A stretch of DNA of 64,000 nucleotides, from NCBI GenBank assembly GCA_951406725.2, contig OX597833.1, forward strand, positions 44,454,001 through 44,518,000. The letters run 5' to 3'. A program made the position numbers. Positions 9,001 through 63,000 of this stretch are shown here, in pieces; the stretch's first letter is position 1; each line of letters starts with the position of its first letter. This stretch comes from Octopus vulgaris. Taxonomy: Eukaryota.

Positions 9001-12000
9001 AGGGATCGAGCCCTAAGTACATGCACGGCATACTTCGTGATTCGTGTCGAGAAAATGATGAATGATTATTCTCACAAAGAACACGTCGTAAGCGATGTCT
9101 TTTCTCTTCACTTCTAATTTTCTGTTAATATTTCTTTTTGATGAAACCCAACATCTGTTATTAAATTTACCCATCAATTCCTGCGTAACTGGTTGGCTAA
9201 TTCGATCTGCACAACTTCTCCATTTTGTGTGAGATATGTTCCGTCTTCAGTATCCTGAAGCTGTTTATTAATCTCGTCTATGTTGATTGTATGGATAACC
9301 AATTTGACTTAACTGTAACCAGCTGCCCGAAACTGTGGACAACATACGCTAAGCCGATCGTTTATTTTGTAAACAATTTATCTACAACCCAAATATTCTA
9401 CGGTTATTTCTTCGGCGTTGGTGATACCGGTTTGGCAACTGTGAGTCGGAGCGCACTAAGTATCATTCCTAATAATATTATTAATATTATATAAGGGTTT
9501 AAGTGTGTTTTGATGAAAAAAGTATATACATACATGGAAATACGCATGCATACATATATTCACAATCACGCGTGTGTGTAAACGTACACAAAATATGCAT
9601 GCCGCCATACATATACAAATATGAATGCAAGCCTATTTCTAAAAGAATTTTTTCCCAGATGTTTGGCACCAACCCCGCCCCCACCCCATCAGGGAAACAT
9701 ATCCATTTCACGTATGCAAATGCACAGAAACCACATACATATAACCACATAAACAAAGCTTTTTTGCAAACACCCACACGTATAAAAACATGAAAACATA
9801 TTCGTACGCAAGAAGGCACAGACACACACACAGACATACACACACACACACACACACACACACACATGTATGAAAAGTATGAATACATACAATGGGGAGC
9901 ACTCCGCTGCCCTAACCACTGGGCCATTGCGCCTCCACACATACAATAGCATAGAGACGCCGTAAGCATATTTAAACGAGAATACCTCTATGTGGCATTT
10001 TAACTAACAAGAAATAGTAGCCACGTCACATACATATCACAAGAACTTTTTTAAAAGAAGTTTGGATACATTGGATATTATAGTCCCAGGTGTTCTATTC
10101 CTGAAAAGAACGGATGCGATTGTTACACCCGGAATACCGTCGACTCTTAGATAACGGTTGAGCTGAGGCTAAATAACCGTTGTGACAAGAAAAGGGTAAA
10201 CACCAATAAGGGTAAGAAATAGAAAATGGATTTACCTTTTCTTACGAACTGCTCCCTAACCGGAGATTTGTCTGGTAAGTGAACCAAAATTTGTTTTGCA
10301 TGTGATACTTGTGTCAGATACGTCTTTCATTTGTGTAGTGAAATTATAAAAAGATGATACCAGAGAATAACAGCTGGAAGTAACTGGTATTTTCTCTCCT
10401 TTGATGTCATAATTTGATTTACCATGCTTTGTAACAATCCACGCAAAGGCTACATGCGATTCAAATGGTGCGCCAACATTTGCTACACATCTAAAGATTA
10501 TTATTTTTCTGTATTTCTTGACAAGTTCCAGACTCTTTAAGCTAGATCTTGCTGAAAAGAAAACGATCTAATATAGCAAAATGTTATAACAATATGCTTT
10601 GACTATTGGGTGGTTTCACTAATATAAACAACAATCTTCATACTAAACTAAAATGTTTAACACCAGACGAATTGTTCTTGATGCTGGACCCTGTGAACTA
10701 CTGTTTCTAATTTGCATACACATGCACACGCACACAGAGACACACACGCTCTTAGACAGGCATACATCTCATGGGCGTCTCTTTGCTATTTTCGTACATC
10801 TATCTGGTTTAAATAATTGTTGTGTTCTAATTTTTCGCCTCTTGTCAAATATATGATTTTACCTACTCGTTTTGTTACTACTCCGTAGGACATTTTCATA
10901 TGAAATGCTGTTTTTTATGAGAAAAAAAAGACACCCTGTGGCAATAAACTGAGGCGTCACTCGTAAATAGAGCTGGATAACAAAACCTTTCCCTCTTTAG
11001 TGTCCACCAATAATTATGACCCTAGTATCCATCTGTTGCATTTCAATCTGTTTCAGGGTTAGGGTTAGAGTTAGGGTTAGGGTTAGGGTTAAGGTTAGGG
11101 TTAGCGGTGGGGGGAAGGGTATCTTTTTTCTTCAGAAATGTAAATAAACCCAATCTGTTTTTTAAAAGAATATATAATATGTAACAGGGACATTTTCATA
11201 TGACGCCGCCAGAAAATGTTACGGCAGATATCGCTTTCACCTCAATAGACGTCATTCATTGGTTGAAATTGCCGAAATGCAAGAAATTAAACTACAAATA
11301 TCTTACAAACTACAGAATTTTCTCACAAAAGCCAACAGAGAAAGATATTTTATAGACACATTCTACCAGTATACGAAGTTTAAAATTTTTTAGATACATA
11401 GAAATTATTTTTAAAATATGCCAGTCAAAGTGAAAAGATCCGAATATATTTCAAAGTGAGAACTATCGGATTTTTGTGTGCGGCACAGAATCAAAGATTT
11501 CCTAATTCGAAACCACTAAACTCATGTAATGAAACAAAATACATTAAATATCTGTGGAATATATGGATATTGGCAAGAGAAAAATTAAATATGGTCACTG
11601 GTTAACCATATTTAACAAGGAATGGATACAACAGACCTGACAAAGCTGGATGTTTCAATTGCTTGGAAATTAAATAAATTAGGCAATTTAGACTTACATC
11701 TGAAAAAAACCTCTACATCTCACAAAACAGCACATTGGAATCTGTTAGTTCACAGACTCCAAGATATCAATGTTAATCGACCACATATTTTCCAAAGCTA
11801 GCAGGAAATGAATTGCTTTTTCATTTTTTACCAAAATGCTACACACCGTACAAAAAATACACAGGGACGCTTAAGAAAACTTAGTAGTAATGGATGATAG
11901 CAAACTTCTGATGGCAATTCAAGATACAATATATTATAATTAAGAATAAAACCCTTTTTGCCAGAATAAATTACTAATCTTAGTCACTGCTACATAAAAC

Positions 12001-60000: not shown

Positions 60001-63000
60001 GACACTTGGCTTATCATGACATTTGTGACACAGCATAGGCTACTGGTGAGTGCTGAGGAAACAAGGCATGAAATTTTGTCGTGTAGTGTCTGAAGAGTGA
60101 CATTTTCTCAGGTAGTTGTCTCTGATAAGCTCCGAAGACCAGAAAGCCATTGCGGAAATGTGCCCCGCTAAGAGTGAGGTGGAGAAGACCATGAAAAATT
60201 GGTGGCGCAAAGCAACCAAAGCTTCTTAGCTTGGATATACTACAGGAGGACTTTGTCTGTTCGGAATAAATTGTAGATGTTTAACTATGCTGGGGCTGCC
60301 AGTGAATGAATATCTCTGAGATGCGTGCAGGTTTAGAAACTATCCAGTACACACACGTTTCAGTGCCGTGAATTTCGTTTATGTCGAAAAACTGTTATCA
60401 TGTCCGGAGTGGAAATAGCTATCAACCAACTTTATCTATATCTATCGCCTTCCTTTCGCCTGATGGCTGGCTGTGAAGAGGAAAGTTGTGTAGCGTACAT
60501 GAGTAAAATATTTGTTAACTGGAGCTTTTTCTCAAGTATCACTCGAAGAAGAAGCTGGATGTAAAAATGGAGATAGACCCTTCTAGAAAGTGTTATGAAA
60601 TGTGTGTGCTGTTGAATAAATATACACTATACTGTTGTATACTTCCAGCAAGAAACAGTAATCAAGGATTCTTTATATGTATACCTTCAATCACCGCATG
60701 TACTTGCCCGCTTCAATTCTGAGGATCTATGGTGCTTATTCTATTGCTCTATAAATATGTATGTATAATTGTTAAAGAGGGCAACAAATATTAAGGCAAA
60801 GCAAACATCTCAAATCATGTACATTGTAATTATTATTGGAAAAAATTCAAACTCTTACAGCTGTTTCTGGGATATCCCGTCACCGGAGACAATTATGGAA
60901 AATGAAGATAGTATAGATTAATGGAATGATGACATAGAGGACAGGAGTAAAGGAATAAGGGATATGATATACTCTGGGATATCCCAGAAACATCGGGAAG
61001 ACTTTGAATTTTTTCCAATAATAATAATGTATATGACTTGGAGTACACATGCAAGGCAATTTCTTATGTATGACAAGTAAATCCAAATACGTATAGAGAA
61101 ACTTACATCTTTTAATTGCAGAATTCACCTTACAAAGCTGACAATTGCTTCAGCTGAATTAAAATATTTATATATAGAAAATATGATTGAAATTAATTTT
61201 TCGAAAAATACACGTTAACGCAACGTTTTCAAGGTGATCCAAAATTAGTTAAATTCTAAGTAAACTCAGGAAATATTTCCAGTACACGAACGTATACATA
61301 AAGAACGCTAGAAAGAAATATAATATAATAAAAGCTATTTTTTGTATTCGATTATCGGTGACGTCACTGGATAATGAAAGTATAAAAAATAAACATAAGA
61401 ATTCTACGTTACAACAATTAGAGAGACTTCATGCAAATTAGTTATCTATTTATTGAATTTAATAAACAATTTTAGAGAAATCATGCTTATCATATAACAT
61501 ATAAAAAGCAATTACAATCAAAAATAGGAATATTTAAAAGCCTTCCGAAATTTGTGGCAACATTTCATTGTAAAATTCCTATCAAAATTTAATAAAATTA
61601 ATTTAGAAGTAATTACGCAGCCTGCTTTCCAACCACATAGCTCCGGGTTCAGTCCCACTGCGTGCCACCTTGAACAAGTGTCTTGTGAGTGAATTTGGTT
61701 ATCGGAAACTAGAAGAAACCCGTCGAATATGCGTGTGTGTCTTCTAGTATGCATCTTGTACGTATGTATATATGTGTATGCATGTGTATGTGTATATATA
61801 TATATATATATATATATACGTACATATATATATATAGTTGCATTACTATGTATGTACGCTTATGTATATACGTGTCAGTTTGAGTGTGTGTGTGTTTATG
61901 TGTGTGTGTATTTGTGTGTGTGTGCCTGTGTGTGTGTGTGTGTGTGTGTGCGCGCGCGTGTTTGCACTCTGCCGACGATCCACATTCAAATTCCACCATC
62001 CCCAGTCCATTGTTCGTTGCGAACGTTTAGGCTAAGTTCTGCTGGAAAGCTGTTTACATCAGTCTGGAATCCGTTGACGTGCTCGATTTAGTCCGTCACA
62101 TACCTATGTAGAACTTTGATACTCACTGACTCTATGCAAGTGCTATCAATCGAACGGTTTCTACCCAGTGGGTTTCAGAGATCAGGAGCTAGTATGAACA
62201 ACGCATCCTTTGTGATTTGAGTTGAGGAAATGATCAATGATTATTTCCACTACAATTATGCCGTATGACTTTATCCGTTCGCCTTCTAACATATAACCTA
62301 CTGCCTTTTCTGATCTACTACCCTCTTTTGCTACCACTTTGTTAAAACTAACAAATGAAATTGGGAACATTCAGAATGGCATTCTTAACAATATTCCTAA
62401 TTACTAATTACATAGAAATATACATGCATACCCGCATGCAAAAGACATATACGCGCATGAAAATATAGATATACGCATGTCAAAAATATGCAAAAACTAA
62501 TACACATACGTATTTAAAACTAAGCTTGCTCACTGATCTGAGGCTAATAGCAACAATTTTTTTTTAAAAAGCGATAAAATATTAACCAATGTGAACCAAC
62601 GATAAGTAGCTCAGCTTTTGTTACGTCATTCCAAACTGATAGTTCGCGCAATTTCTGTTCCAAATGCTTTGCATGTGAAAGTTGTGTAATCTAAGTCTTT
62701 CTCTGTTACAAGGTAGTAATACTCCGCATCTACCACAACAAAGCATTTGTCACTATGTGGAACTATCTGTATTTTATAGAGCTTACGCCATAGATTGGGA
62801 GTCCCTATGGTCCATTTAAAAGTGACAGTTGGTGGAGAAGGTAACCCAACAATTGCTGTACATCTGATGATCCATGGTCTTACGAAGGTTTTATCACTGA
62901 CCATTTCCAGAGACTGTATATGAGATTTCGCTGGAAAAAAATGAATCAATATATGTAATTCTTTCAACAATAAGCCTCACAATAAAATATTGTATATTTA

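What the first reader, a model, noticed from the sequence alone, without database searches (positions are those of the whole stretch)
10256..62930. Hidden tandem family of small two-Ig-domain genes
Seen in sequence: splicing three minus-strand exons at canonical GT-AG, phase-1 junctions gives open CDSs of 236 aa (A) and 235 aa (B). A third divergent last exon (C) stops at the equivalent position, and two pseudo-exons lie between the genes. Established: one-domain-per-exon phase-1 structure and the C...W...C and DxAxYxC motifs are hallmarks of the Ig superfamily. Inference: this is a lineage-specific birth-and-death family of basic, glycosylated, probably secreted Ig-like proteins. There is no TM segment or tail after domain 2, unlike FREPs or Dscam. 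Domain 1 has extra Cys (five in total) and lacks the C-strand Trp. I do not recognise the family; it is a candidate for immune, self/non-self or gamete recognition.
Basis: partly seen in the sequence, partly recalled or inferred. Interest (0 to 1): 0.85.

Follow-up and report, generated by a model that had tools for sequence, protein, structure and literature searches.

The report
Octopus tandem two-Ig-domain gene family
Three neighbouring octopus genes encode small proteins built of two antibody-like domains; the genes are real and fast-diverging, but sister species already carry gene models for them and their function is unknown.

Summary
On the minus strand, genes A (15062-10256) and B (37781-31750) each have three exons with canonical GT-AG, phase-1 junctions. 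They give 236 and 235 codons. A third last exon (C, 62930-62626) and two decayed domain-1 pseudo-exons are also present.

NCBI models from Octopus bimaculoides and O. sinensis carry the same two junction residues. An O. vulgaris "hypothetical protein" matches the window at 95-100%, but it is a chimera of C, B and A pieces. So the family is mis-annotated here rather than unknown.

Pfam recognises no member at threshold. AlphaFold2 folds each domain exon confidently (pLDDT 92.6 and 93.2). Domain 1 matches only antibody V domains. Domain 2 is a seven-strand Ig-like sandwich, C2-like by my reading. Relatives include leader-only, GPI-like and transmembrane forms.

The unexpected result is that A and B differ by 15-18% in the exons but about 6% in the aligned non-coding DNA, with dN about equal to dS. 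Even so, the frames, all cysteines and the splice sites are intact.

Best reading: a birth-and-death array of rapidly diversifying extracellular V-C2 binding proteins. Ligand, tissue and secretion are untested.

The parts
14969..15062 (-). Gene A exon 1: ATG, hydrophobic leader (31 codons plus 1 base), donor GTAAGT
   Evidence: In alignment A3 it aligns with the signal peptides of paralogues.
12801..13121 (-). Gene A exon 2: domain 1, V-like Ig domain, five Cys, phase 1/1
   Evidence: AF2 pLDDT 92.6. Foldseek matches are V domains only.
10256..10551 (-). Gene A exon 3: domain 2, seven-strand Ig-like domain with C-W-C plus Cys60, stop TAG
   Evidence: AF2 pLDDT 93.2. Foldseek and ESM.
37688..37781 (-). 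Gene B exon 1: leader. A TATATATT lies 75 nt upstream of the ATG.
34307..34621 (-). Gene B exon 2: domain 1
   Evidence: Residues 99-174 of the O. vulgaris model P0040 match at 94.7%.
31750..32048 (-). Gene B exon 3: domain 2, stop TAA
62626..62930 (-). Gene C last exon: domain 2 of an older paralogue. Its domain 1 and leader exons lie beyond the window end.
   Evidence: 69% identity to O. bimaculoides LOC128250270. The two form a clade with 100 SH-aLRT support.
17927..18223 (-). Pseudo-exon of domain 1 with 5 in-frame stops, between B and A
46577..46740 (-). Pseudo-exon of domain 1 with two internal deletions, between C and B
1..21271 (.). Tandem unit 1: gene A plus a pseudo-D1
   Evidence: Self-blastn: 1-15503 is colinear with 21272-39919 at 80-96% identity.
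21272..47440 (.). Tandem unit 2: gene B plus a pseudo-D1, enlarged by insertions
   Evidence: 16535-18511 matches 42133-47032, and 20967-21786 matches 47154-47970.
47441..64000 (.). Older, repeat-rich unit 3 holding the gene C last exon
   Evidence: 186-519 matches 47625-47974 (78%). 8819-9070 matches 61975-62245 (68%), which places C D2 in the same position as A and B D2.
30717..30878 (-). ORF matching the C-terminal 53 aa of the O. sinensis model LOC118766817. It may be an alternative 3' exon or 3' UTR, and it holds the first AATAAA after the B stop.
   Evidence: The unit-1 copy (9335-9177) has an in-frame stop.

Best explanation
The window is Octopus vulgaris DNA or something nearly identical. 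It holds part of a tandem array of an octopus gene family. Each gene has three exons: a hydrophobic leader, a V-like Ig domain (D1) and a C2-like Ig domain (D2).

A and B are intact copies inside a recently duplicated 21-26 kb unit. That unit also carried along a dead copy. C is an older paralogue cut off by the window end.

Proposed mechanism:
- The leader takes the protein into the secretory pathway.
- The two domains form a short rigid rod. It is stabilised by the canonical B-F disulfides and by three extra conserved Cys in D1 plus one in D2. I infer that one of these makes a D1-D2 bridge.
- D1 presents a variable V-type face that binds an extracellular ligand.
- The protein is either released or held at the cell surface by an uncleaved leader.

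The coding exons diverge much faster than the surrounding DNA, or keep older variation than it, while the fold-defining residues stay fixed. That is the signature of a diversifying recognition, immune-type or secretion-product family.

Shown: gene structure, paralogy, Ig-type folds, relatives in Octopus, the excess of exon divergence over non-coding divergence, and retention of the reading frames.

Inferred: secretion, the interdomain disulfide, ligand binding through D1, and diversifying selection as the cause.
For: Gene structure and junctions. The same junction residues appear in independent NCBI models of O. bimaculoides and O. sinensis.

Species: residues 191-246 of the O. vulgaris protein P0040 match 30656-30489 at 100%, and residues 99-174 match B D1 at 94.7%.

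Folds:
- D1: pLDDT 92.6, pTM 0.85, 9 strands. All 47 listed Foldseek rows are antibody, nanobody or Fab entries, with prob 1.00 and TMq 0.47-0.71.
- D2: pLDDT 93.2, pTM 0.83, 7 strands. Of the 10 best Foldseek rows, 7 are Ig domains: MILL2, HLA-DM, IL-18BP and IL-18 receptor.
- ESM features: D1 is nearest to unnamed molluscan clusters (0.95), then V-set clusters (0.92). D2 is nearest to C1-set/C2-set_2 clusters (0.95, 191 shared features).
- Family profile against PDB sequences: 58 of the 60 rows shown are Ig-superfamily proteins such as Fc-gamma RII and Fab light chains; the others are an endoglucanase and a Fab-complex chain I could not assign. Best E is 0.006.

Family: 29 representatives at E<=1e-3 among 1.84 billion. 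In D1, C66, C78, W79, K80, C85, D87 and Y91 are invariant in 22 of 22 rows. In D2, C21, W37 and C84 are invariant in 32 of 32 rows.

Leader: exon 1 aligns with the classical signal peptides of paralogues such as MLLAIIILTMASYTSAY.

Divergence between A and B:
- Exons: 17/94, 50/315 and 43/286 mismatches. Aligned non-coding DNA: 865/14117. Fisher p = 6e-5, 2e-9 and 1e-7.
- Pooled synonymous difference 0.185, non-synonymous 0.162, non-coding 0.061.
- D1 dN/dS is 1.59.

Frame retention: random substitutions at the observed numbers keep all three exons open in 347 of 20000 trials. Both exon indels are in frame.
Against: - No Pfam Ig model reaches its threshold in any of the 5 exon translations or the 32 family members. 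The best hits are C2-set_2 at E 0.0057 and Ig_2 at E 0.017.
- No Foldseek match has E<=0.001 for either domain. The D2 list also holds non-Ig sandwiches, namely superoxide reductase and Brr2.
- No transcript evidence was available for the window itself.
- No AATAAA or ATTAAA lies within 890 nt after any of the three stops.
- The leader of A and B ends in KKRE or KNRE, which does not fit the usual small residues before a cleavage site. Secretion is therefore not secure.
- dN/dS is not significantly above 1 (Fisher p 0.33 for D1; pooled N vs S p 0.46). Synonymous sites are as diverged as non-synonymous ones. Positive selection alone therefore does not explain the pattern. Relaxed constraint, or patchy homogenisation of the non-coding DNA, are alternatives.
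- Non-coding divergence is uneven. Windows at 9800-9949 and 14000-14299 reach 0.17-0.28. Only DNA that blastn could align was counted: 6088 of 21271 positions were unaligned.
Confidence: 0.7

Rival explanations
1. A and B are membrane proteins or parts of longer products, not small secreted proteins. Either the uncleaved leader acts as a type II signal anchor, or alternative 3' exons add a tail as in other family members.
For: - The hydrophobic stretch of A is about 18 residues long and is followed by KKRE. No small-residue cleavage motif is present.
- Relatives carry GPI-like C-termini (P0021, P0025, P0027, P0032) or a transmembrane helix plus cytoplasmic tail (P0022, P0036).
- The O. sinensis model splices D2 to a fourth exon that maps to 30878-30720 and 9335-9177.
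- O. bimaculoides LOC128250269 has two isoforms that differ in the D2 exon.
- The O. vulgaris model P0040 strings pieces of C, B and A together.
Against: - All three D2 exons end in a stop at the same position.
- The fourth-exon-like ORF has no hydrophobic segment, and its unit-1 copy carries an in-frame stop.
- P0040 reads A exon 1 in another frame and uses a cryptic donor inside B D2. It looks like an annotation artefact.
- The family HMM finds no further domain exons in the window.
Confidence: 0.15
2. A and B are young duplicates drifting towards pseudogenes. The high exon divergence with dN about equal to dS reflects lost constraint, not function.
For: - Pooled dN/dS is about 0.87, and the exons are more diverged than the introns.
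- Neighbouring copies have already decayed.
- No nearby poly(A) hexamer follows the stops, and A has no TATA-like box.
- The only O. vulgaris annotation here is chimeric.
Against: - Only 347 of 20000 random-substitution trials keep all three frames open.
- Both indels are multiples of three.
- All eight Cys, the D2 Trp, the CWK and D-x-A-x-Y-x-C motifs and all eight splice sites are intact in both copies.
- Loss of constraint cannot make exons more diverged than the neutral introns beside them.
Confidence: 0.1
3. The domains are generic beta-sandwiches that resemble Ig only superficially, so the Ig-superfamily reading is wrong.
For: - No Pfam Ig hit reaches threshold.
- All Foldseek E-values are above 0.001.
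- The D2 list includes superoxide reductase, Brr2 and glycosidase sandwich domains.
Against: - The Cys pairs are spaced 69 and 63 residues apart. D2 has the C-strand Trp and D1 has D-x-A-x-Y-x-C.
- Each domain is one phase-1 exon.
- D1 matches V domains only.
- ESM neighbours are V-set and C-set clusters.
- 58 of the 60 PDB profile rows shown are Ig-superfamily proteins.
Confidence: 0.03

Closest known systems
Uncharacterized Octopus proteins: O. bimaculoides LOC128250269 (X1, X2), LOC128250265, LOC128250267, LOC128250270, LOC106876203 and UniProt A0A0L8FP14 ('Ig-like domain-containing protein'); O. sinensis LOC118766817 and LOC118766814
   Same: Same leader-D1-D2 layout, the same junction residues and the same conserved Cys/Trp pattern. 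A D1 is 91% identical to the O. sinensis protein and 71-74% to the O. bimaculoides proteins. C D2 is 69% identical to LOC128250270. A and B D2 sit in one clade with them (SH-aLRT 99).
   Different: None of them has a described function. Six text searches on the family, plus a seventh that only looked for the O. vulgaris genome paper, turned up no paper on it; one of the six used their accession numbers. The D2 of the O. sinensis model is only 58-67% identical to A and B, although its D1 is about 90% identical. Copy content or exon use therefore differs between sister species.
Two-domain V-C2 members of the Ig superfamily, such as the CD80/CD86 (B7) and CD2 families, and small secreted Ig decoys such as IL-18BP (named from general knowledge; IL-18BP also appears)
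   Same: An N-terminal V-like domain followed by a seven-strand C2-like domain, one domain per phase-1 exon, and extracellular binding proteins. The sub-threshold Pfam hits go to C2-set_2 and Ig_2.
   Different: There is no detectable sequence membership. D1 lacks the C-strand Trp and carries three extra conserved Cys, and D2 carries one. A, B and C have no transmembrane segment after D2.
Biomphalaria FREPs (fibrinogen-related proteins; recalled, not tested against sequences)
   Same: Molluscan, secreted, one or two IgSF domains, multigene and diversifying, with a role in immune recognition.
   Different: FREPs end in a fibrinogen domain. Here a stop follows D2, and no fibrinogen domain is found by Pfam in any of 32 members.
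VCBPs of amphioxus and Ciona (recalled)
   Same: Small secreted invertebrate proteins with V-type Ig domains, polymorphic and multicopy.
   Different: VCBPs are V-V plus a chitin-binding domain. Here the layout is V-C2 with no third domain.
The 'hypervariable exons, conserved introns' pattern of snake-venom PLA2 and conotoxin genes (recalled evolutionary analogy, not homology)
   Same: Exons are 2.5-3 times more diverged than the flanking non-coding DNA between tandem paralogues.
   Different: Here synonymous sites are raised as much as non-synonymous ones. Mosaic gene conversion may therefore contribute. There is no evidence that these proteins are venom components.

Membership tests
Immunoglobulin superfamily (fold level) | Two-sheet Greek-key sandwich with Ig strand order | tested here: met
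   AF2 models have pLDDT 92.6 and 93.2. All 47 listed Foldseek rows for D1 are antibody V-domain entries. For D2, 7 of the 10 best rows are Ig domains, but E is at best 0.0096 and non-Ig sandwiches are mixed in.
Immunoglobulin superfamily (fold level) | B-strand and F-strand Cys about 55-75 residues apart | tested here: met
   D1 C24-C93 are 69 residues apart and D2 C21-C84 are 63 apart. D2 C21 and C84 are invariant in 32 of 32 rows. D1 C24 is present in 19 of the 20 rows that cover the column. The disulfide bonds themselves were not tested.
Immunoglobulin superfamily (fold level) | C-strand Trp packing on the disulfide | tested here: inconclusive
   D2 has it: W37, invariant in 32 of 32 rows. 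D1 does not. Its only Trp is W79, next to C78.
Immunoglobulin superfamily (fold level) | D-x-A/G-x-Y-x-C before the F-strand Cys | tested here: inconclusive
   D1 has D87-I-A-A-Y91-S-C93, with D87 and Y91 invariant in 22 of 22 rows. D2 has only a degenerate form, D-T-S-I-T-C.
Immunoglobulin superfamily (fold level) | One domain per exon with phase-1 introns | tested here: met
Pfam Ig families (ig, V-set, I-set, C1-set, C2-set_2, Ig_2, Ig_3) | Score at or above the gathering threshold | tested here: not met
   None of the 5 exon translations and none of the 32 family members reaches it. Best hits: C2-set_2 E 0.0057 (2 of 32), Ig_2 E 0.017 (3 of 32), ig E 0.14 (2 of 32). No C1-set hit is listed.
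V-set (for D1) | Extra C' and C'' strands, giving nine strands | tested here: met
   DSSP on the model gives strands at 2-7, 19-27, 33-38, 41-49, 54-60, 64-66, 73-81 and 90-94, plus a short G strand. Structural matches are V domains. ESM neighbours include V-set clusters at 0.92.
C1-set (for D2) | Strand D in the A-B-E sheet with no C' hairpin, plus a sequence match to PF07654 | tested here: inconclusive
   In favour: the ESM nearest clusters are C1-set (0.95), and Foldseek lists MHC-like alpha-3, HLA-DM and C-lambda domains. Against: no Pfam C1-set hit, and the third and fourth strands are joined by a two-residue turn (41 to 44). I read that turn as a C-C' hairpin, which makes the domain C2-like.
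FREP | C-terminal fibrinogen-related domain | tested here: not met
   A stop follows directly after D2. No fibrinogen domain appears in 32 members.
Dscam or other large Ig receptors | Many Ig and FN3 domains, a transmembrane segment and arrays of alternative exons | tested here: not met
   Each gene has only two domain exons, and the window holds no further family exons. The multi-domain database entries P0014 and P0012 repeat the D1-D2 or D2 unit and look like fused tandem genes.

The most novel reading that the evidence does not exclude
The array belongs to a cephalopod-restricted system of V-C Ig proteins that exists in secreted, GPI-anchored and transmembrane forms. It would serve as a diversified non-self or mate-recognition repertoire. 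Exon-focused diversification, by selection against homogenising conversion or by exon-targeted exchange among array members, would create variation in the V-like domain. If so, it would be an independent molluscan counterpart of FREPs and VCBPs. If D2 also proved to be truly C1-like, it would be a V-C1 chain outside the jawed vertebrates.
Probability: 0.15. Interest if true: 0.75.

Novelty: new member of a known kind. Interest (0 to 1): 0.42.

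Why it matters
Cephalopods have no known diversified immune-type receptors, and very few of their lineage-specific gene families have a proposed fold. This family has three features of interest:
- No Pfam model recognises it.
- It folds as V-like plus C2-like Ig domains.
- It occurs in leader-only, GPI-like and transmembrane forms.

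In this window it also shows tandem paralogues whose exons are about three times more diverged than their introns, while every structural residue is kept. That makes it a concrete candidate for studies of recognition, secretion products or reproduction in octopus.

It also shows that the O. vulgaris annotation of this locus needs correction. The importance is limited because the genes are already predicted in sister species and nothing is yet known about expression or ligand.

Tried and rejected
- **Pfam.** No significant family for the five exon translations, for ten representatives or for all 32 members.
- **The listing of cluster members.** I asked it for names and taxa of the unnamed relatives. 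The organisms of 20 of the 29 profile hits therefore stay unknown, and the family's range outside Octopus is unchecked.
- **Closed or irrelevant collections.** No tBLASTn across cephalopod genomes was possible.
- **C1-set reading of D2.** Considered because, but not adopted; see the membership test.
- **FREP and Dscam.** Rejected; see the membership test.
- **Fourth exon of the O. sinensis model** (30878-30720 and 9335-9177). Checked as a possible tail. It has no hydrophobic segment, no Pfam hit and an in-frame stop in unit 1.
- **O. vulgaris model P0040.** Rejected as a guide to structure because it is chimeric.
- **Positive selection.** dN/dS of 1.59 for D1 is not significant.
- **Rfam.** 0 matches over the whole window.
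- **Papers.** Seven searches. I saw only listings and abstract starts and read no paper. None deals with this family. Supplements are closed, so expression tables that might list these genes were not seen.
- **Joined exons.** The joined A, B or C protein was never made, searched or folded. Whole-protein statements rest on arithmetic and on database orthologues.

Full report
**What is in the sequence**

Read on the minus strand, gene A has three exons:
- Exon 1, 15062-14969: an ATG, 31 codons plus one base, donor GTAAGT.
- Exon 2, 13121-12801: 321 nt, acceptor TTATAG, donor GTTGGT.
- Exon 3, 10551-10256: acceptor TTTCAG, ending in TAG.

Gene B repeats this at 37781-37688, 34621-34307 and 32048-31750. 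All introns are phase 1.

Each exon was translated, searched and folded on its own. The split codons (Ser and Ala) were worked out by hand.

A third D2-type exon, C, lies at 62930-62626, with an acceptor and a stop at the equivalent position.

tblastn of the separate exon translations against the window gives:
- A vs B: E 5.5e-47 for D1, 2.5e-42 for D2 and 2.4e-10 for exon 1.
- A D2 vs C: E 1e-10.
- Two decayed D1 copies, at 18223-17927 and 46740-46577.

The first decayed copy has five in-frame stops. The second has two internal deletions.

A family HMM run over all 2130 six-frame pieces found these exons and nothing else. The one exception is a marginal D2-like relic at 51197-51346 (E 0.016).

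**Layout of the array**

Self-comparison shows that 1-15503 is colinear with 21272-39919 at 80-96% identity. 16535-18511 matches 42133-47032, and 20967-21786 matches 47154-47970. Units of about 21 and 26 kb therefore each hold one intact gene and one dead D1.

A third, older and repeat-rich unit starts near 47440. The flank downstream of A D2 (8819-9070) matches the flank downstream of C D2 (61975-62245) at 68%. C therefore sits in the same position in its unit as A and B. The D1 and leader exons of C must lie beyond base 64000.

**What it is related to**

The D1 translation of A finds five proteins at E<=0.01 among 33 candidates:
- O. sinensis LOC118766817, 91% identity.
- O. bimaculoides LOC128250269 X1 and X2, both 74%.
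- UniProt A0A0L8FP14, labelled 'Ig-like domain-containing protein', 71%.
- LOC128250265, 53%.

Their sequences read ...RE-S-IYVVE... and ...K-A-KS....

C D2 finds LOC128250270 at 69%.

A D2 profile searched against 1.84 billion representatives gave 29 proteins at E<=1e-3. A family profile then returned 14 proteins. Thirteen are named, and all of those are Octopus: 9 bimaculoides, 2 sinensis and 2 vulgaris.

One O. vulgaris 'hypothetical predicted protein' (P0040) matches the window as follows:
- 100% at 30656-30489.
- 94.7% at B D1.
- 86% at the start of B D2.
- 96% at A exon 1, read in another frame.

Its first 98 residues are a C-type D1 that is not in the window. The window is therefore O. 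vulgaris or nearly so, and its public gene model here is a chimera. The family is mis-annotated in this species rather than unknown.

In a D2 tree, A and B fall in a 9-row clade (SH-aLRT 99) with the O. bimaculoides and O. sinensis genes above. C pairs with LOC128250270 (support 100).

**Fold**

Pfam finds nothing significant in the five exon translations. The best hit is ig, E 0.085, for B D1. It also finds nothing significant in the 32 family members. The best hits there are C2-set_2 at E 0.0057 in 2 of 32 and Ig_2 at E 0.017 in 3 of 32.

Domain 1:
- With the family alignment, AlphaFold2 gives pLDDT 92.6 and pTM 0.85, with nine strands.
- All 47 Foldseek rows listed are antibody, nanobody or Fab entries. 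Prob is 1.00, TMq is 0.47-0.71 and the best E is 1.7e-3. None is at or below 1e-3.

Domain 2:
- The model gives pLDDT 93.2 and pTM 0.83, with seven strands.
- Its best Foldseek rows are MILL2, IL-18BP, HLA-DM and the IL-18 receptor. They are mixed with non-Ig sandwiches. The best E is 9.6e-3.

Other evidence:
- ESM feature search puts D1 next to unnamed molluscan clusters (0.95) and V-set clusters (0.92). It puts D2 next to C1-set/C2-set_2 clusters (0.95).
- The family profile against PDB sequences lists Ig-superfamily proteins in 58 of the 60 rows shown, weakly. The best are Fc-gamma RII at E 0.006 and Fab light chains from E 0.01.

I read D2 as C2-like for two reasons. Its third and fourth strands are joined by a two-residue turn, and the sub-threshold Pfam hits are C2-set_2 and Ig_2.

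**Conserved features and likely working**

Across the family, D1 keeps C66, C78, W79, K80, C85, D87 and Y91 in 22 of 22 rows. D2 keeps C21, W37 and C84 in 32 of 32 rows and C60 in at least 90%.

Counting the B-F pairs, D1 has five Cys and D2 has three. From the strand map, C85 lies in the E-F turn at the base of D1. C60 lies just before strand E, at the top of D2. I infer that they may bridge the two domains. This is not shown.

Exon 1 aligns with the classical signal peptides of paralogues. In A and B, however, it ends in KKRE or KNRE, so cleavage is uncertain.

Relatives have GPI-like tails (P0021, P0025, P0027, P0032) or a transmembrane helix plus cytoplasmic tail (P0022, P0036). A, B and C stop right after D2.

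The O. sinensis model adds a fourth exon that maps to 30878-30720 and 9335-9177. The unit-1 copy has an in-frame stop and neither copy is hydrophobic.

The first poly(A) hexamers lie 890-1033 nt after the stops.

**An unexpected pattern**

Between units 1 and 2, the exons differ at 17/94, 50/315 and 43/286 aligned positions. Aligned non-coding DNA differs at 865/14117 (6.1%). Fisher p is 6e-5, 2e-9 and 1e-7.

In 150-bp windows the two domain exons reach 0.12-0.18 and the exon-1 window 0.11, against 0.00-0.06 in intron 2. Two non-coding windows are equally high, at 9800-9949 and 14000-14299. Also, 6088 of 21271 positions did not align.

| Exon | dN/dS (A vs B) |
|---|---|
| D1 | 1.59 |
| D2 | 0.62 |
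| Exon 1 | 0.58 |

Pooled synonymous and non-synonymous differences are 0.185 and 0.162. They do not differ from each other (p 0.46), and both are about three times the non-coding value.

Random substitution at the observed numbers keeps all three exons open in only 347 of 20000 trials. Both indels are in frame.

The copies are therefore kept as coding genes while their exons hold more and older variation than the surrounding DNA. I see two ways to explain this. Diversifying selection may combine with patchy homogenisation of the non-coding DNA, or exons may be exchanged with more distant array members. This analysis cannot tell which.

**Verdict**

This is an undescribed but already predicted Octopus family of the Ig superfamily, V-like plus C2-like, arranged as a birth-and-death tandem array. 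Six text searches on the family, plus one aimed at the O. vulgaris genome paper, found no paper on it. I saw only listings and abstract starts, and supplements are closed.

Expression, secretion, ligand and the range outside Octopus remain open.

Noticed in passing
window 34631-34404, 32049-31987, 30656-30489, 15039-14968: The public O. vulgaris model P0040 (314 aa, 'hypothetical predicted protein') strings together five pieces: a C-type D1 from outside the window, most of B D1, the first 20 residues of B D2 through a cryptic donor (CAA|GTAAGA), an exon at 30656-30489, and A exon 1 read in another frame. It looks like a chimeric annotation.
   Followed up: partly
window 30878-30717 and 9335-9177 (minus strand): This ORF matches the last 53 residues of O. 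sinensis LOC118766817 at 92%. It is open in unit 2 and has one in-frame stop in unit 1. It contains the first AATAAA after the B stop and differs by only 3/159 nt between the units. It may be 3' UTR or an alternative last exon.
   Followed up: partly
database proteins P0007 and P0008 (O. bimaculoides LOC128250269 X1 and X2): The two isoforms share the leader and D1 but carry different D2 sequences. One D1 exon can therefore be spliced to alternative D2 exons in that species. The same could happen in this array.
   Followed up: no
window 11750-12049 vs unit 2: There are 300 bp of intron 2 with no difference at all between units 1 and 2. They lie between exons that differ by 15-16%. This may be a recent gene-conversion tract.
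   Followed up: no
window 44760-45311 (+): A 183-aa open frame matches the Pif1 helicase 2B domain (Pfam PF21530, E 9e-16). It is probably a fragment of a Helitron-type or Pif1-like mobile element inserted in unit 2.
   Followed up: no
window 52284-53506: A 269-bp inverted repeat at 99.3% identity (52284-52552 against 53506-53238) flanks a 175-aa open frame (52665-53192) that has no Pfam match. By eye it looks like a mobile element.
   Followed up: no
window 49199-50899: A block of direct and inverted copies at 99-99.7% identity. It is a very young local rearrangement or an assembly duplication inside unit 3.
   Followed up: no
window 19692-20971 vs 52215-50912: An inverted copy at 92.6% identity lies between unit 1 and unit 3. 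It carries the marginal D2-like relic: 51197-51346 on the minus strand (E 0.016) and 20540-20686 on the plus strand (E 1.9).
   Followed up: partly
window 7022-7502, 25688-26113, 38421-38861, 39224-39727: Long microsatellite and low-complexity tracts create spurious open frames of 130-167 codons.
   Followed up: no
database proteins P0014 (726 aa, O. vulgaris) and P0012 (403 aa): These models contain several D1-D2 or D2 repeats in a row. They are probably neighbouring tandem genes fused by annotation, although true multi-domain members cannot be excluded.
   Followed up: no
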